A program made the position numbers. A DNA stretch of 64,000 nucleotides from Carcharhinus longimanus (Eukaryota), in NCBI GenBank assembly GCA_030264375.1, contig JASCQW010000139.1, positions 32,122,347 to 32,186,346 of the forward strand, read 5' to 3'. Within the stretch, counting starts at the first letter, position 1, and every line of letters begins with the position of its first letter. Positions 1 to 60,000 of the stretch are shown one piece after another.

Positions 1-3000
1 CCATGTCTGCGTGGTATTCCTCTGGGTGCTCCGGTTTCCTTCCACAGCCCAAAGATGTGCAGGTTAGGTGGATTGGCTACTTTAAATTGTCCCTTAATGT
101 TAGGGGATTAGCAGGGTAAATTTGTGGGATAGCGAGGATAGGGCATGGGTGAGATTGTTGTTGGTGCAGGCTTGATGGGCCGAATGGCCTCCTTCTGCAC
201 TGTAGGGATTCTATGATTCTACAGTTCCCCATGGGAAGCCGAAATATTAATCTCTGGCTCCTCCTTCAGTTTTGTGTGTTGAGAATGGCTCAATTAACTA
301 TCATACAAGTTGAGTTTTTGGGTGGAAATCCTTCCTCATTTGGCTCGGCCACCTGTTATCCTTCATTAATGAAGCCAATCCAATACTATTCTGGCAATTT
401 GTCTGGTGGCCTTCTATTGCAGGAGAAAGCAGGGAATGGTCAAAGAGGAGAGCTCTGATATTGTCGTTACCCAAGGTTGAGAGTCATCTCAAAGAACATC
501 ATGGTAGTCCACATTAGATAAAGAGGAATTGCAAAACTGGAATTAAAAATTGTGTAAGGTTAAAGAAAGAAAATAATCTCCGATTGGAAATGTTCCTGTT
601 GGGGAGATTTTGATACATTTTTCTACAATTATACAAAATTGCTATCAATATGCTATTCACCTTCACAGGGGATGGACGTGTAAATGAGCATCTGGGGATC
701 TTATCCTTTCATGTATTGTTTCTACGGGAACACAATCGCTTAGCAAGAGAGTTAAAAAAACTGAACCCACACTGGAGCGGAGAAACAATCTACCAGGAGG
801 CCAGGAAAATCATGGGGGCATTTCACCAGGTAAAATGGACATTTCCTTGACAGCTTTGATAGCAGGATAACAGAGTTAAACAAGTCTTTGACAGCTTGCC
901 AGTTCAAATGAATTTGTGTGTAAAAAATGCACAACCATGTTCACTTTTAACAATCCCAAAAGGTGCCTTGTCTCTCTCAAAAGGGATAGCTTACATTCCC
1001 AAAGGGGTATCCTGGCTATCCAAGTTTAGACCTTATCCAGTCTAAGTGCAGACTCTACGTATCACACTTCTACTTGACCAGATTTCCACTTCAGTGGAGA
1101 CAGCTACTGATTAAAATGGCCTCAAATCGGAACCCTGGCCTCATTCCACTCCTGCCACAATGGCAAAAATTTCAGACAAAGAGTTTCCAGATTAAAAATA
1201 GATTTGCATTTATGTAGCACAGATTATGACCTCAGGACATACCAAAAAGCTTTCCAGCCAATTAAATAATTTTGAAGTGTAGTTGCTGTTGTAATGCAGA
1301 AAAGGGGCTGTCAAGTTGCACAGAGCAAGCGCCCACAAGTAGGAATGTGGTGAACGACCAGATATAAATGTTGATTGAGGATTAAATACTGGGCAAGGCA
1401 CCGTGGATAACTCCCCTGCTCCCCTTTGAAGTACTGCCTTGCAATCTTTGACAGTGCCTCAGGATACAGTTGGGTCTCACCCAACATGGATGGCATCTCC
1501 AACAGTGCAGCACTCCCTCACACTGGAGGGAGGTGCAGCCTAGATTTTTATGCACAAGCCCTGTCACAGGACTTGAATCCACAATCTCCTAACGTAGAGG
1601 TGAGAGAGCCATTGCTAACCAGGCCTTGAGGAGAAGACAGCAGTTAATTTAATGAACCAGAATCAAATATTTTAAATCTTTTCAGAATCCTAACCTCTTG
1701 TAACTGATTTTCAACAATTTTACTTTCCTTGCCAAGTATTTTACCATTTGCCTTTTAGTCATTATTGACACTGTTGATTCTTTCTATATTAATTAATTGG
1801 AATATTAATTCCTTATTGGAATGTGAACTCCAAAACAGTTTCCATCAAGTGAAAAAACCTGAATTCAACCTGCACAAGATTCTCAATTAACCGCTGAGTG
1901 AGAGGCTACTGCTCTGCTATAGTCGGAAACCCAGACGATTCTGGATTTCATTATCCTCGGAAGACAATACGCTCATCCATTCCTCTCCCTGACTCCTTCC
2001 TGACAGATAATAACCTACAGAGACTATGTTCCTCGACTCATTGGCTCAGCCGCAACGCAGAAATATCTCCCTCCCTACAGGGGTTACAATGAATCCATTG
2101 ATCCCAGAATTGCCAATGTTTTTGCCACGGCTTGTTTACGGTACGGACATGTCACCATTCAGCCAATCGTCCATCGTTTCAATGAAAGCTATCAAGAACA
2201 CCCACTTTACCCAAACCTTCTCCTGCACAATTCCTTCTTCTCTCCCTGGAGAATTGTGGATCAAGGTAAGTAATAAATTTCAGCGTTGCCATAAACTAGC
2301 CACATGCTGCCATTGAAGCATCAGTGTAAGAACAAGCTGCCTTAAGTTGCCATTCAAACTGCACACCTATATTATCAACAATTACTTCACATCAGAGAAT
2401 AATCAATCTCTATGAAGCACTTGAAGAAGTTTCTGAGATATGTGGTAACCGTAATATGACTGCAAACATTTTCCATTATTGAATTCAATTGATTTATTAT
2501 TTTTACACGTGTTGGGATTCAGTGAAAAGTATAGTTTCGAGATGTCATTAGAAACTTATAAAATTCTAACGGGGTTAGACAGGAGAGATTCAGAAAGAAT
2601 GTTCCCAATGGTGGGCGAGATCATAGCTTGAGGATGAGGCATAAATCTTTTAAAACTGAAGTGAGGAGAAATTTCTTCACCCAGAGGGTGAATGTGTGGA
2701 ATTCATTGCCACAGAATGTAATTGAGGCCAAAATGTTGTCCGATTTCCAGGAGAAATTAGATATAGCTGTTGGGGCCAAAGTGGTCAAGGGATGTGGGGG
2801 GGAGAGGGATCAGGATATTGAATTCGATGATCAGCCATGATCAAAATGAATGACCTACTCCGAATGGCCCACTCCTGCTTCTAGTTTCTACGTTTCTTGC
2901 GAGCTCTTACAGACAAAACATACCATTCATACAGCACATAGGGGAGATGGAAAGGATAGAATCGTAGAATCCCTACAGGAGGCCACTCAGCCCATTGAGC

Positions 3001-57000: not shown

Positions 57001-60000
57001 ATATAATGTATTGATCATCACAGAAACTGGATTTGGCTGAATGCAGCTGTAATATTTCTGCATTTTGACCATAGTTTTCCCCTTTGTTCTGAAATGTATC
57101 CTTTTCCTGGGGTCATTGATACTTTGAAATTTGTTGCTCTTTCCCACAGAACCTAACCCTTTGTTCTATAACACCCAACCATCAATTCTTGATTTGACTC
57201 CTATTCTATCCTTTTCCTAACTTTGTTCCATCACATCAGTTTCAGCGCAATGAAACCATTACTGGAACTGGGATTTAACAAACATTGTGTTTTTCGGGTG
57301 TGCTGGCAGGTACAGAAATGGGACAATGGGAGTACACTTCTTTGACCTATTATAAAATTCTGCAAATGTTTGTTCAGCAGTCAAGCACAATCCCTCGAGG
57401 GACTTAACGATCACTAGCCTATCCATTTTGAGTTTGAGAGGTGCTTGTTTCTTGCAGAAGTCATTTTTGAACTGACCTGATATATTGAATGGCCATCGAT
57501 GATTCAGGTGTATGTGGTTTTTGATGAATCTCAATGCAGTCTCCACAGTATCAGCAGACTGCACTTTCCTGATTGCTGCAGTAAGCTGCTTGAAGGAGCT
57601 TAGGAGGTCTAAAGATGTTCGGGATGCTTTATTAATATTGTTTTCACTGTTGAAAGAGGGAAGAATTTCAAAGATTTCATGAAGGCTGTAAGTCAGTTGA
57701 TCAATCCTGAAGCCTATTTGCAAATGTTGCAAAACTCTACTTTTATAAGAACGTAAGAACTGGGAACAGGAATCGAGAGTTTAGCCCTTTGAGTCTGCTC
57801 TGCCATTCAATATGATCATCTCGGCCTCATCTCCACCTCCTTGCCTGCTCCCCATAACCCTCCGTTCGCCTTACTTTTTTTATTTAGTGAATGCAAAGTC
57901 GCCAAATTAAACAGTGTCTTTCAGTCCTGCTGTGTTATGCGCAAAGAGGCCTCCATTGAGTCTATGTTTGTGGTGCATAATTTGCTCTCTGCTCTAATCT
58001 CCCTACTAATTAAAAAGCTATCAATCTCCGCTTTAAGTTTGTTATGAGAGATCAAGATATAGAGTGACCAAGGAGATCAATGAAATTTTATCACAATCTC
58101 ATCATCTTGAGATTGCAACGTATTGAATATCTAATGACTGAGTATAGGTTTCTACTTCTTATTCTCTGTCCACGTATCTAGCAATGTGTTGTTGTCTGGT
58201 GCTGAGTAGCCATGGTGTGGCAAATTTCTACAAGTATTCTCCTGTTCGTAAACTCCAGGCAAACCCTAGAAAGTCCACCAAAATAGTGGGTAGAATTATA
58301 AAGAGCTCTGATGAAGTAAATAGGAATAGATTTTTCCAATTGTTGGAGAGGTCACAAATATAAAACAATCACAAAAGCAATGGATTAGAAACAAAGATGG
58401 ATTGTGTAAACCATTGTTGGAAGAGTCCAGATGCCTTGTTTAAAAGGGCATTAAATAGATGCTTTGAAAAAAAGAATATTAAAGGGATTAAGTGGAAGTG
58501 TGGAATTAGACTAAGGGCTAGATTTTCCTGAAACCCCCTCCCACCCACCACCACCACTCCCCTTCCCAGGAGGTGTTTTTGGGGTGGAGGTGGCTTGCCT
58601 TTGGCTGCTAGCAAGATCTTCCAGTCCAGCTGAAACCTATAGCAATTTGCCAGGCTCACCTGTCTCGCTCCCAAGGTAAGTTGCCATGAGATGGTTTCCT
58701 TCAGGGGGAGCAGAAGATCCCACTAGCAGGAAGGTTGAAAAATTCAATCCTAAGTTCACGATGTGCAGAAAGACATGAGAACAGACACGAGACACCAAAT
58801 GTGTTCAAACTGTAATCTTTATGACTTTAGTAATTGATTGAGTAGAAGCACTAATCTATCCTATAAAGTCATTCAAGAGATTATGTATCTTATTAAATTT
58901 AAGTTGAGTTTATTTATTAGTGTTACAAGTAGGCTTACATTAACACTACAGTGAAGTTACTGTGAAAATCCTCCAAACGCCACACTCCGGTGCCTAGTCA
59001 GGTACACTGAGGGAGAATTTAGCATGGTCAATTGCACCTAACAGGGATGTCTTTTGGACTGTGGGAGGAAACCAGAGCATGTGGAGGAAACCCACATGGA
59101 CACGAGGAGAACATGCAGACTCTGCACAGACAGTGACCCAACTGGGAATCGAACCTGGGTCCCTAACACTGTGAGGCAGCAGTGTTAATCACTGCGCCGC
59201 CCCATGTATAAAACAGTGGAACTAATCTTTATTTTTTCTCCTCAGAGTTATATTACTTTTGCATTGACACTGTCACCATTCTGAGATTGTGGAAGATGGT
59301 CTAATAATGTGGCTTCTTTCCTTTTTTTCTCCTTAGGTTTTAGGAAGGAATTGAAGGTTGAGGCACATTAATTAACAGCGGGAAAGAAATAAGTATCTGT
59401 GCAGAAGTGGGTCATTAGGCTCTGCTTTGGTTTTCGTGTTCTTCGGCCCATTTTCAAATGATGCAAAGAAGCTTAACCCTTGTGTATTAGTAAATGTGCT
59501 GCTGACATTAAGGCGGCAGCAACTTCATTGCAGTGTGAATGTAAGCCCGCTTGCGGCACTAATAAATAAACTAAACAAATTTAATACCAGAGAAATTCAG
59601 CATAGTTAAGCAAATAAACCATGAAATGATGCAACATCTGAATCTTGCATGACAGCAGTCGGAATGTGATAGCTACATAATAAAGGAATGTTGATTAGCA
59701 AACAAAAATGAGAAATAATTCCATTATGATTACTGATGGTTCACTGGTTAATAATCCAGTGTGAAAATTTTATTGGCCAGAATAATTGTGAACTGGAATC
59801 ATTATAAGGGTGTTTGGCTCAGCCACATCAGGTTATTGTGATCAGAGACATTGTAGGTGAATCCAGTTCAAGGGCAGTGTCCCTGAGATTAATACTCACT
59901 CGTCTCTGAACTCTTTGTACAATTGATGGATCATTTTGAAAGCTTCCTGTGAAGTAGTTTGCTTGTACTCACTGCCCAGGGCTCCCTCAGAATCTGTACA

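What the first reader, a model, noticed from the sequence alone, without database searches (positions are those of the whole stretch)
669..59993. Tail-to-tail pair of shark peroxidases with MPO-like introns but a TPO-type Sushi domain and no visible membrane anchor
Seen: both genes end the catalytic domain with a phase-1 donor spliced to a 162-bp CCP exon. I found no EGF (D.NEC) or intact transmembrane exon in the 9.5 kb between the two Sushi exons. Known (recalled): in mammals only TPO has CCP (followed by EGF and TM), while MPO/EPX/LPO stop after the catalytic domain. Human TPO lacks the intron in LAG|D that MPO has and that both genes have here. Mammalian LPO and MPO are also tail-to-tail. 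Inference: these are soluble peroxidase-CCP proteins that may retain the architecture from before the MPO/EPX/LPO lineage lost its C-terminal modules, with CCP possibly targeting the enzyme.
[Added by the scan's program, not by the reader: the finding's places include an assembly gap (unread letters, written N; its length is only estimated) at 3384 to 3401, 11142 to 11241, 13971 to 13984, 15413 to 15672, 22257 to 22356, 30120 to 30149. Whether the letters on both sides are continuous or in frame is not known: test that first.]
Basis: partly seen in the sequence, partly recalled or inferred. Interest (0 to 1): 0.75.

Follow-up and report, generated by a model that had tools for sequence, protein, structure and literature searches.

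The report
Shark soluble peroxidase genes with Sushi domain
Two neighbouring shark genes encode myeloperoxidase-like enzymes that still carry one complement-type Sushi domain but no membrane anchor, which suggests that our own white-cell peroxidases lost this module during evolution.

Summary
The window carries two heme-peroxidase genes tail to tail. Gene A is on the + strand, 669-14323, with its 5' end off the window. Gene B is on the - strand, 59993-20444. In both, the catalytic domain ends at a phase-1 donor that joins a 162-nt Sushi exon (Pfam E 1e-12 and 1e-10).

Gene A ends DVATNEI-stop. Gene B ends in a 48-residue acidic Ser/Gly tail. Neither tail has an EGF or membrane segment, and none was found in the 9.6 kb between the Sushi exons.

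No gap touches an exon. One expected 238-nt exon of gene A is absent from the read sequence.

All 18 exon peptides find their best match in two conserved elasmobranch groups that are already auto-annotated as "eosinophil/myeloperoxidase-like".

Trees of full-length orthologs put both groups with MPO/EPX/LPO, and with coelacanth and lungfish Sushi forms. They lie outside two TPO-type clades (support 96-97). An AU test does not reject the alternative (p 0.10-0.27).

All gene-B-type proteins have replaced the heme-linking Asp94.

The variant is real and moderately novel, and I found no description of it in print.

The parts
669..829 (+). Gene A exon, 161 nt, phase 1 to 0. It begins inside the Gly codon of LAG|D and carries Arg239 and Glu242 (MPO numbering).
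   Evidence: best blastp hit is A-type Scyliorhinus/Cetorhinus at 98%
2007..2265 (+). Gene A exon, 259 nt, phase 0 to 1. Carries the proximal His (LRYGH).
   Evidence: (An_peroxidase E 2.7e-19)
6151..6321 (+). Gene A exon, 171 nt, phase 1 to 1.
11142..11241 (.). 100-N assembly gap in the gene A intron where the expected 238-nt exon (GYNAW...RDGDR) is missing from the read sequence. The flanking phases (1 and 2) require an exon of length 3n+1.
   Evidence: not filled, by instruction
12053..12258 (+). Gene A exon, 206 nt, phase 2 to 1. End of the catalytic domain (…DLSAWKENTE).
   Evidence: (An_peroxidase E 4.5e-8)
13407..13568 (+). Gene A Sushi/CCP exon, 162 nt, phase 1 to 1, donor GTAAAA.
   Evidence: PF00084 E 9.8e-13
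14301..14323 (+). Gene A terminal coding exon: G|AT GTT GCA ACA AAT GAA ATA TAA, reading DVATNEI-stop.
   Evidence: same end as A-type orthologs (…TNEI / …TKEI); first AATAAA downstream at 14669
20444..20589 (-). Gene B terminal coding exon: 48 residues, acidic and Ser/Gly-rich, then TAA. No hydrophobic stretch.
   Evidence: 91% identical to the tail of Mustelus P0008, E 3e-26; no Pfam family; the same tail in the ortholog model has pLDDT 24-27
23009..23139 (-). Tandem repeat of 30 nt x 4.4 that copies the 3' end of the gene B Sushi exon together with its donor site.
23127..23288 (-). Gene B Sushi/CCP exon, 162 nt, phase 1 to 1, donor GTAAGA.
   Evidence: PF00084 E 1.2e-10
24595..24800 (-). 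Gene B exon, 206 nt. End of the catalytic domain.
27954..28191 (-). Gene B exon, 238 nt. Its counterpart is the exon missing from gene A.
   Evidence: (An_peroxidase E 1.9e-25)
28810..28980 (-). Gene B exon, 171 nt.
30776..31034 (-). Gene B exon, 259 nt, with the proximal His (MRFGH, aligned to MPO His336).
32375..32535 (-). Gene B exon, 161 nt. Starts after the LAG|D intron. Has Arg239 and Glu242, with Asn at position 243.
36604..36946 (-). Gene B exon, 343 nt. Ends ...CMLAG| with a phase-1 donor GTAAGA.
   Evidence: (An_peroxidase E 1.1e-19)
40613..40819 (-). Gene B exon, 207 nt, with the distal site QWGQWITHD: His95 is kept and Asp94 is replaced by Thr.
44399..44528 (-). Gene B exon, 130 nt.
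48058..48190 (-). Gene B exon, 133 nt.
57477..57646 (-). Gene B exon, 170 nt (propeptide).
59900..59993 (-). Gene B exon, 94 nt (propeptide start). The signal-peptide exon upstream was not found in the window.

Best explanation
The window holds two paralogous genes for secreted or granule heme peroxidases of the MPO/EPX/LPO branch. They are 69% identical over the five shared exons.

Each gene has the usual catalytic domain, then one Sushi (CCP) module on its own symmetric phase 1-1 exon of 162 nt, then a short last exon. That exon encodes DVATNEI in gene A and a disordered acidic Ser/Gly tail in gene B. Neither has an EGF module or a membrane anchor.

Both are members of two ortholog groups that are conserved across sharks and rays. 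So the duplication is older than the split between sharks and rays.

The most likely history is as follows. The first jawed-vertebrate peroxidase already carried the Sushi module directly after the catalytic domain, as both TPO-type clades still do. The MPO/EPX/LPO branch first lost the EGF and anchor. Cartilaginous fishes, coelacanth and lungfish kept the Sushi. Tetrapods and ray-finned fishes then lost it as well, which is easy because skipping a 1-1 exon keeps the reading frame.

Shown: gene structure, domains, catalytic residues, orthology, and absence of EGF and membrane segments from the read sequence.

Inferred: secretion, enzymatic activity, the order of losses, and any role of the Sushi module or the tails.

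Gene B and all its orthologs lack the Asp that makes one of the two heme ester bonds. Their heme is therefore probably held by the Glu242 ester alone.
For: Gene models:
- All splice sites are canonical and the frames are continuous.
- Of 10 exon peptides scanned with Pfam, 2 are Sushi, 7 are An_peroxidase and 1 (the gene B tail) matches no family.

Terminal exons with stop codons:
- The gene B tail is 91% identical to the tail of Mustelus P0008.
- The gene A tail matches the ...TNEI ends of A-type orthologs.

No EGF or anchor:
- 0 D.[DN]EC motifs in six frames of 13569-23126.
- 103 TPO-type tails, 91 of them with that motif, hit only the Sushi exons.

Orthology:
- 5 of 5 gene A exons have their best hit in the A group (81-98% identity).
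- 13 of 13 gene B exons have their best hit in the B group (87-97% to Mustelus).
- tblastn sums are 91.1% over 327 columns for A and 85.1% over 914 columns for B.

Architecture in relatives:
- 7 of 8 A-type and 10 of 10 B-type proteins carry Sushi.
- Coelacanth P0382 and lungfish P0049, both named MPO or MPO-like, carry it too.

Trees, built on catalytic columns only:
- Clade III (tetrapod MPO/EPX/LPO, ray-finned mpx, coelacanth, lungfish, shark A, B and C1q types) has SH-aLRT 97.
- TPO clade I has 99, and membrane TPO-like clade II has 100.
- The careful tree gives clade III 96/90. FastTree gives 0.959.

The Sushi modules look homologous:
- They sit at the same place after DLSAWKE and share a fifth Cys.
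- TPO-type Sushi aligns full length at up to 35.5 bits (B) and 41.0 bits (A).
- The best of about 4000 other CCP modules reaches 32.5 and 34.6 bits, mostly as partial alignments.

Exon skipping keeps the frame: the Pristis P0033 and C. punctatum P0029 models lack exactly this module.

Catalytic residues by alignment to solved MPO and LPO:
- His95, Arg239, Glu242 and His336 are present.
- Asp94 is replaced by Thr.
- The same replacement (T, S or N) is seen in 10 of 10 B-type proteins.

Structure model of ortholog P0008:
- The Sushi region has pLDDT about 85-91 and the tail 24-27.
- The best fold match is proMPO, with TM 0.93 on the target.
Against: - The AU tests do not reject a tree with all Sushi-bearing proteins as one clade: delta lnL 12.6, p 0.273, and delta lnL 19.6, p 0.101.
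- By raw parsimony on the tree, one gain plus three losses is no better than several separate gains.
- The score margin of TPO-type Sushi over unrelated CCP modules is small, at 3-6 bits.
- The window's own genes were placed only exon by exon and through database orthologs.
- The reference proteins are automatic gene models, and I saw no transcript data.
- Three gaps lie between or next to the Sushi exons and could hide an alternative exon: 13971-13984, 15413-15672 and 22257-22356.
- Gene A lacks one catalytic exon in the read sequence, so whether it is intact is not shown.
- No mammalian TPO was in the trees. Clade I is called TPO from the names that sources give to turtle, ray and teleost proteins.
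Confidence: 0.7

Rival explanations
1. The shark, coelacanth and lungfish Sushi-peroxidases are a third old lineage nearer to the TPO-type clades. They lost the EGF and anchor, while the MPO/EPX/LPO line of tetrapods and ray-finned fishes never had a Sushi module.
For: The AU tests do not reject all Sushi-bearing rows as one clade (p 0.273; p 0.101). The Sushi modules of the two groups are each other's best full-length matches.
Against: - The free trees put these groups with MPO/EPX/LPO under every method tried: 0.959, 80, 91, 96/90 and 97.
- In one search the tetrapod clade is nested among the Sushi-bearing lineages.
- The rival needs reciprocal losses: no MPO-type gene in sharks, and none of the third lineage in tetrapods and ray-finned fishes.
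Confidence: 0.17
2. The Sushi exon was inserted independently, by exon shuffling, into a peroxidase gene of cartilaginous and lobe-finned fishes. It does not descend from the TPO module.
For: Phase 1-1 CCP exons are classic shuffled modules. The score margin over unrelated CCP modules is only 3-6 bits. Counting changes on the tree does not favour a single gain.
Against: The module sits at the same position a few residues after DLSAWKE. It has the same shortened first half and the same extra fifth Cys as in both TPO-type clades. Alignment is full length to TPO-type Sushi but mostly partial to other modules.
Confidence: 0.06
3. The genes are membrane-anchored after all. EGF or membrane exons lie in the unread gaps or are used in other splice forms.
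For: Gaps of unknown true length lie at 13971-13984, 15413-15672 and 22257-22356. Both Sushi exons end in good phase-1 donors. One weak hit resembles a membrane tail, at 21185-21229 on the + strand, E 0.035.
Against: - Both genes have a conserved last exon with a stop codon, and orthologs from many species end the same way.
- The weak hit has only 8 hydrophobic residues after a stop codon. It came from 51 queries, and it lies on the wrong strand for gene B.
- No homolog in the A or B groups has a hydrophobic tail.
Confidence: 0.05

Closest known systems
Automatically annotated elasmobranch orthologs: 'eosinophil peroxidase-like' of Mustelus asterias (P0008, 828 aa) for gene B; 'myeloperoxidase-like isoform X2' of Scyliorhinus canicula (P0020, 780 aa) and 'eosinophil peroxidase-like' of Cetorhinus maximus (P0025) for gene A
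   Same: Same domain order and the same tails. Per-exon identity is 87-97% for gene B and 81-98% for gene A.
   Different: They come from other species. They are computer-made models with borrowed names, and none of my 8 literature searches found a description of them.
Mammalian myeloperoxidase, eosinophil peroxidase and lactoperoxidase
   Same: Same catalytic fold: the ortholog model matches proMPO 5mfa at TM 0.93 on the target and 49% identity. His95, Arg239, Glu242 and His336 are shared. They fall in the same clade in the trees. There is no membrane anchor.
   Different: The shark genes add a Sushi module and a tail exon. Position 243 is Asn or His rather than the Met of MPO. Gene B has Thr in place of the heme-linking Asp94. 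The shark duplication is separate from the tetrapod MPO/EPX/LPO duplications.
Thyroid peroxidase (clade I) and the membrane-bound TPO-like peroxidases of sharks, lizards and fishes (clade II, often named 'eosinophil peroxidase' in teleosts)
   Same: A Sushi module lies directly after the catalytic domain, with the same extra Cys.
   Different: TPO-type proteins go on with a calcium-binding EGF module, a membrane helix, or both. They form separate clades at 99-100 support. Where the table shows it, they sit on other contigs in the same species.
Peroxidase-Sushi-C1q proteins of cartilaginous fishes (for example Callorhinchus P0015)
   Same: They are the sister group of the B type in the trees, with support 95/92. 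The peroxidase-Sushi core is the same.
   Different: They end in a collagen-like stretch and a C1q head (Sushi 720-753, C1q 800-917). No C1q exon is present in the window.

Membership tests
Animal heme peroxidases (Pfam PF03098, peroxidase-cyclooxygenase superfamily) | An_peroxidase domain | tested here: met
   7 of 7 catalytic exon peptides scanned score above the Pfam cut-off. The other catalytic exons match by tblastn and blastp.
Animal heme peroxidases (Pfam PF03098, peroxidase-cyclooxygenase superfamily) | Distal His95 and Arg239, proximal His336 (MPO numbering, from chain 6azp_A) | tested here: met
   Gene B has all three. Gene A has Arg239. Its LRYGH lies at the same place as gene B's MRFGH in the paralogous exon of equal length; only gene B's was aligned to MPO His336. 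The gene A exon that would carry His95 is off the window.
Animal heme peroxidases (Pfam PF03098, peroxidase-cyclooxygenase superfamily) | Two heme ester links through Asp94 and Glu242. Their role is taken from passages of PMC10679500 on EPO Asp232 and Glu380; the equivalence of numbering is recalled. | tested here: not met
   Glu242 is present in both genes. Asp94 is Thr in gene B and T, S or N in 10 of 10 B-type orthologs. In gene A the residue is not visible, but A-type orthologs keep DHD.
MPO/EPX/LPO group | Falls in the clade that holds tetrapod MPO, EPX and LPO | tested here: inconclusive
   Orthologs fall there at 96/90 and 97. The AU tests do not reject the alternative (p 0.273 and 0.101). 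The window genes were placed only through per-exon best hits.
MPO/EPX/LPO group | The protein ends with the catalytic domain | tested here: not met
   A Sushi exon and a tail exon follow.
MPO/EPX/LPO group | Met243 sulfonium link (specific to MPO) | tested here: not met
   Asn in gene B and His in gene A at position 243.
MPO/EPX/LPO group | Intron positions as in mammalian MPO, including the intron in LAG|D that human TPO is said to lack | not testable with these tools
   The intron is present here. No vertebrate genomic sequence of MPO or TPO was available, and two literature searches gave nothing usable. The claim is recalled.
Thyroid peroxidase | Falls in a TPO clade | tested here: not met
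   Clades I and II exclude the A and B groups at 99 and 100. Rays and sharks have their own members of these clades.
Thyroid peroxidase | Sushi followed by a calcium-binding EGF module and a membrane helix | tested here: not met
   Sushi is present. There are 0 EGF motifs and no homologous EGF or membrane tail in the read sequence of 13569-23126. The terminal exons encode hydrophilic tails. The unread gaps were left unread.
Sushi / CCP module (Pfam PF00084) | About 55 residues with four spaced Cys and the conserved Trp | tested here: met
   Pfam E 9.8e-13 and 1.2e-10. The exon matches CCP modules of complement receptors and factor H in the PDB. C3, C25, C39, W45 and C52 are present, plus an extra C17.

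The most novel reading that the evidence does not exclude
Cartilaginous fishes preserve living intermediates of a stepwise dismantling. The first jawed-vertebrate peroxidase would have been TPO-like (catalytic domain, CCP, EGF, anchor). The white-cell peroxidase line would then have shed the anchor and EGF first and the CCP last.

In sharks the retained CCP became a platform for new targeting ends. One paralog carries an acidic Ser/Gly tail with conserved (D/G)SGxG sites that could take glycosaminoglycan chains, as in a granule proteoglycan, together with a heme held by a single ester bond. A sister paralog carries a C1q head. Together these would make a family of oxidant-producing enzymes aimed at surfaces in a complement-like way.
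Probability: 0.3. Interest if true: 0.7.

Novelty: new variant of a known kind. Interest (0 to 1): 0.5.

Why it matters
Textbook accounts split vertebrate heme peroxidases into soluble MPO/EPX/LPO and membrane-bound TPO with CCP and EGF modules.

This locus and its orthologs show a third, conserved architecture on the MPO side: soluble, with one CCP. Database tables also reveal a second membrane-bound TPO-like clade, and forms fused to C1q.

Together these make the order of domain loss in this medically important family testable. They offer natural variants for asking what the TPO CCP module does. They also offer a natural single-ester heme variant for studying how covalent heme links set halide specificity.

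The automatic names in the databases ("eosinophil peroxidase-like", and "eosinophil peroxidase" for teleost TPO-like genes) mislead about orthology.

Tried and rejected
- the full ORF list (650 rows) was too noisy to use.
- comparing the left half with the right half cut gene B in two. It mostly returned interspersed repeats and found only one exon pair.
- the first alignment script hit the 60 s limit. I repeated it with a faster MAFFT mode.
- no trace of the 238-nt exon of gene A in 6324-12050 (best E 0.30). No signal-peptide exon of gene B in 59901-64000.
- the one weak candidate for that exon (TEKDG at 60334-60348) is not a signal peptide.
- ten long intronic or intergenic ORFs, including the 202-residue ORF 23803-24411, have no Pfam family above the cut-off.
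- a bacterial promoter and terminator scan of 59900-64000. It does not apply to a vertebrate gene and I ignore it.
- the search of 1.84 billion representatives with the Sushi exon ranks proteins by summed score. The 150 listed are giant multi-CCP proteins, so the ranking says nothing about the nearest single module. I reused them only as a control set of about 4000 modules.
- literature searches for the TPO/MPO intron comparison and for the LPO-MPO tail-to-tail arrangement found nothing usable. Both remain recalled claims.
- the weak membrane-like hit at 21185-21229 (+) and seven hydrophobic windows in the intergenic region are rejected as chance. The hit follows a stop codon, and no hydrophobic window resembles a TPO-type tail.
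- careful tree runs that did not finish. The run was completed.
- I considered that the His in [10 protein letters not shown] is the proximal ligand. Alignment to solved structures shows the proximal His is the one in RFGH.
- A joined spliced protein was never built, searched, folded or put in a tree. Every search with window sequence was made exon by exon.

Full report
**What is in the window**

The window has 11 runs of N. A first self-comparison showed one strongly conserved exon pair, 662-835 (+) and 32542-32369 (-), at 83% identity. Its translation carries the peroxidase motif ...LFLREHNR....

A protein search with that 58-residue peptide returned 294 relatives among 319 candidates. By my count of the table, 49 of the 120 listed carry both An_peroxidase and Sushi. 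Nearly all of these come from sharks, rays and chimaera, plus lungfish, sturgeon and paddlefish.

Mapping these reference proteins back on the window with tblastn gave two genes, tail to tail.

**Gene models**

I set the boundaries from codon-spaced views of each end and checked them by script.

- Gene A (+): 669-829, 2007-2265, 6151-6321, 12053-12258, 13407-13568, 14301-14323.
- Gene B (-): 59993-59900, 57646-57477, 48190-48058, 44528-44399, 40819-40613, 36946-36604, 32535-32375, 31034-30776, 28980-28810, 28191-27954, 24800-24595, 23288-23127, 20589-20444.

Every exon has an AG acceptor. Every exon that is spliced onward has a GT donor.

The shared exons have identical sizes in the two genes: 161, 259, 171, 206 and 162 nt. 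The 13 exons of gene B add up to 2420 nt. With the one base carried over from exon 1, that is 807 codons in frame, ending in TAA.

The two genes are 69.3% identical (219 of 316 residues) over their five shared exons.

**Gaps, tested first**

None of the 11 gaps lies in an exon, and the nearest is 317 nt from one. No reading frame therefore crosses a gap.

One expected exon is not in the read sequence. It is the 238-nt exon encoding GYNAW...RDGDR, which gene B has at 28191-27954. Nothing in 6324-12050 resembles it (best E 0.30). The flanking exons of gene A end in phase 1 and start in phase 2, which requires an exon of length 3n+1, as 238 is.

That intron holds the 100-N gap 11142-11241, next to a 22-nt tandem repeat. 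Whether the exon lies there stays open.

The signal-peptide exon of gene B, which would encode residues 1-24 of the orthologs, was not found in 59994-64000. The 5' half of gene A lies left of the window.

**The Sushi exons and what follows them**

Both 162-nt exons are phase 1 at both ends. Pfam scores them as Sushi at E 9.8e-13 and 1.2e-10. In the PDB they match CCP modules of complement receptors 1 and 2 and factor H. They lie 9,558 nt apart.

A low-stringency tblastn with the post-Sushi tails of 51 reference proteins found a last coding exon in each gene.

- In gene B, 20589-20444 follows a ttttcag acceptor. It reads E-D-S-G-S-L-E-G-I-T-G-S-K... to ...G-Y-G-A-T-A-stop. It is 91% identical to the tail of the Mustelus asterias protein P0008 (E 3e-26). 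It has no Pfam family and no hydrophobic stretch.
- In gene A, 14301-14323 follows a ctgcag acceptor and reads D-V-A-T-N-E-I-stop. Ends in (N/K)EI occur in 4 of 8 A-type reference models.

The first AATAAA after each stop lies at 14669 (+) and at 19903-19898 (-). This is weak evidence, because the hexamer is common in the window.

**No EGF or membrane exon**

In six frames of 13569-23126 there are 0 matches to D.[DN]EC. The tails of 103 TPO-type proteins, 91 of which carry that motif, hit only the two Sushi exons. Seven hydrophobic 19-residue windows occur, and none resembles a TPO-type tail.

One weak hit to a shark membrane tail lies at 21185-21229 (+), E 0.035 from 51 queries. It has eight hydrophobic residues after a stop codon, and I take it for chance.

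Three gaps in or next to this region (13971-13984, 15413-15672, 22257-22356) remain unread.

**Orthology, exon by exon**

Each exon peptide was instead compared with 87 labelled reference proteins.

- 5 of 5 gene A exons have their best hit in one group, "A". Examples are Scyliorhinus canicula P0020 and Cetorhinus P0025, at 81-98% identity.
- 13 of 13 gene B exons have their best hit in another group, "B". Mustelus P0008 is first for 12 of them, at 87-97%.

tblastn sums agree: 91.1% over 327 columns for A and 85.1% over 914 columns for B.

Both groups contain sharks and rays, so the A/B duplication predates that split.

In one search the soluble Sushi forms of one species share a contig length, while the membrane-bearing form has another:

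| Species | Soluble Sushi forms | Membrane-bearing form |
|---|---|---|
| Chiloscyllium plagiosum | 51,250,956 | 76,207,864 |
| Mustelus asterias | 111,213,091 | 140,039,266 |
| Heptranchias perlo | 41,663,488 | 76,075,720 |

This fits a cluster of soluble genes with a separate locus for the membrane form.

**Where the two groups sit in the family**

All trees used catalytic-domain columns only (588 columns), so the Sushi columns could not pull groups together.

With 87 rows, FastTree gave a membrane-bearing TPO-like clade at 0.999. All the rest formed one clade at 0.959: tetrapod MPO/EPX/LPO, ray-finned mpx, lungfish, and shark A, B and C1q-type proteins.

With 52 of those 87 rows (35 dropped for run time, listed in the script), IQ-TREE gave:

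| Run | TPO-like clade | Other clade |
|---|---|---|
| LG+G4, quick | 100 | 80 |
| LG+C20 PMSF, quick | 99 | 91 |
| Careful, UFBoot/SH-aLRT | 100/99 | 96/90 |

A later search with the lungfish C-terminus turned up three things:
- a coelacanth "myeloperoxidase-like" protein with Sushi (P0382);
- ray proteins named thyroid peroxidase that have Sushi plus a calcium-binding EGF module (P0384, P0388);
- a turtle TPO (P0410).

Adding these showed three jawed-vertebrate clades. One search is FastTree on 102 rows. One search is IQ-TREE LG+C20 PMSF quick on 59 of the 102 rows, and its SH-aLRT values are given here.

- Clade I (99): turtle, ray and teleost proteins named TPO.
- Clade II (100): membrane TPO-like proteins of sharks, chimaera, coelacanth, lizards, sturgeon and gar, plus teleost proteins named "eosinophil peroxidase".
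- Clade III (97): ray-finned mpx, coelacanth and lungfish Sushi forms, tetrapod MPO/EPX/LPO, and shark A, B and C1q types.
- Clades II and III together: 91.

The "TPO clade" of my earlier trees is therefore clade II. No mammalian TPO was in the trees, and clade I is called TPO from the names that the sources give.

**A result against my reading**

AU tests do not reject a tree in which all Sushi-bearing rows form one clade.

- 32 of 52 rows held together: delta lnL 12.6, p 0.273.
- 39 of 59 rows held together: delta lnL 19.6, p 0.101.

The placement on the MPO side is thus the best estimate under every method tried, but it is not decisive.

What is firm is that the A and B groups are not orthologs of either TPO-type clade. 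Each of those clades has its own shark or ray members.

**Is the Sushi module the same one as in TPO?**

In an alignment of the C-terminal parts, the A, B and C1q types, lungfish and both TPO-type clades share three features:
- the module sits a few residues after ...DLSAWKE;
- its first half is short;
- it has an extra fifth Cys (...HFSIC-K... or ...FFFC-K...).

The table gives phmmer per-module scores for the two window Sushi exons.

| Target | Gene B Sushi (bits) | Gene A Sushi (bits) | Alignment |
|---|---|---|---|
| TPO-type Sushi (best) | 35.5 | 41.0 | full length, query 1/2-52 |
| Lungfish | 46.1 | 41.6 | full length |
| Best of about 4000 other CCP modules | 32.5 | 34.6 | mostly from query position 9-19 onward |

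The other modules came from the 150 multi-CCP proteins. The score margin is small, and the positional and Cys evidence carries more weight.

Because the exon is symmetric (1-1), skipping it keeps the reading frame. Two database models lack exactly this module: Pristis P0033, which ends ...WKENVEGILANEI, and C. punctatum P0029. This gives an easy route to evolutionary loss.

**Catalytic machinery**

I aligned single exons to solved structures and took the numbering from MPO chain 6azp_A.

- Gene B has QWGQWITHD against QWGQLLDHD in MPO. His95 and Asp96 are kept, and Asp94 is replaced by Thr.
- Arg239 and Glu242 are present in both genes. Position 243 is Asn in B and His in A, not the Met of MPO.
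- The proximal His336 of gene B is the His of MRFGH by alignment. Gene A has LRYGH at the same place in the paralogous exon of equal length; I did not align that exon to a solved structure.

All 10 B-type reference proteins have T, S or N at position 94. The A-type, C1q-type and TPO-type proteins and 10 of 13 tetrapod proteins keep DHD there.

Passages of PMC10679500 state that EPO heme is ester-linked through Asp232 and Glu380, and that MPO adds a Met sulfonium link. That Asp232 corresponds to MPO Asp94 is my recall.

The B-type enzymes therefore probably hold their heme by one ester bond. This is an inference, not a measurement.

**Structure model of an ortholog**

I folded the database protein P0008, not a window model, with a 42-sequence alignment. 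Mean pLDDT was 70.8.

- The catalytic core is mostly at pLDDT 85-96.
- The Sushi region is at about 85-91, with beta strands.
- The tail 787-828 is at 24-27, so it is predicted to be disordered.
- The propeptide has low confidence.

The best fold matches are human proMPO and MPO (TM 0.93-0.94 on the target, 49-50% identity), then lactoperoxidases. No TPO chain was among the 50 rows shown.

**Literature**

Eight full-text searches found no paper describing Sushi-bearing non-TPO peroxidases in cartilaginous fishes.

- PMC2315650, on the phylogeny of mammalian heme peroxidases, has 0 occurrences of sushi, CCP, shark, fish, EGF or transmembrane.
- In PMC13078365 and PMC13337447 I saw passages only, and none was relevant.
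- All other papers I saw only as search listings.

The library omits most subscription journals, and supplements were closed. An earlier description may therefore exist that I could not see.

The proteins themselves are already in public databases under automatic names.

**Verdict**

The proteins look soluble and are clearly not TPO. They most likely belong to the MPO/EPX/LPO branch and retain an older module, though the tree test leaves a rival open.

The tail-to-tail likeness to mammalian LPO/MPO is not orthology in these trees.

This is a new variant of a known enzyme kind, of moderate interest.

Noticed in passing
window 40613-40819 (-), motif QWGQWITHD: Gene B and all 10 B-type orthologs from sharks and rays have Thr, Ser or Asn in place of the Asp next to the distal His. 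In MPO, LPO and EPO that Asp forms one of the two heme ester bonds. All other shark groups keep it.
   Followed up: partly
window 23009-23139: A 30-nt unit repeated 4.4 times copies the last bases of the gene B Sushi exon together with its splice donor. This gives further GTAAGA sites downstream, with one copy mutated to GATAAG.
   Followed up: partly
window 11250-11473 and 10956-11007: G+C-rich 22-nt tandem repeats (10 copies on the right side) flank the 100-N gap in the gene A intron where an exon is missing.
   Followed up: no
related proteins P0015, P0019, P0027, P0028, P0032, P0034, P0036, P0038, P0039, P0041, P0048, P0050 (not in the window): Cartilaginous fishes have peroxidase-Sushi proteins that continue into a collagen-like stretch and a C1q head. 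They form the sister group of the B type. Some teleost peroxidases (P0056, P0073, P0078) carry C1q without Sushi.
   Followed up: partly
related proteins: There are two separate TPO-type clades in jawed vertebrates. The second one is membrane-bound and is present in sharks, coelacanth, lizards and ray-finned fishes. In teleosts it is mostly named 'eosinophil peroxidase', so database names mislead about orthology. Shark members of this clade go from Sushi straight to the membrane helix, without an EGF module.
   Followed up: partly
related proteins P0033 (Pristis) and P0029 (Chiloscyllium punctatum): These predicted isoforms skip exactly the Sushi exon. Skipping keeps the reading frame because the exon is phase 1-1.
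   Followed up: partly
window 20444-20589 (-) and 14301-14323 (+): The B tail is acidic, with Ser-Gly sites; (D/G)SGxG near the end recurs in several orthologs and resembles glycosaminoglycan attachment sites (recalled). The A tail ends in (N/K)EI in 4 of 8 ortholog models. The function of both tails is unknown.
   Followed up: no
window 23803-24411 (-): A 202-codon open frame lies inside the intron before the gene B Sushi exon. It has no Pfam family and is probably chance or repeat-derived.
   Followed up: partly
window, many places, e.g. 3-220, 3021-3246, 8950-9180, 28333-28681, 44800-44980, 52500-52830: Interspersed repeat families fill the introns of both genes, on both strands. A (TG)19 microsatellite lies at 20993-21031.
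   Followed up: no
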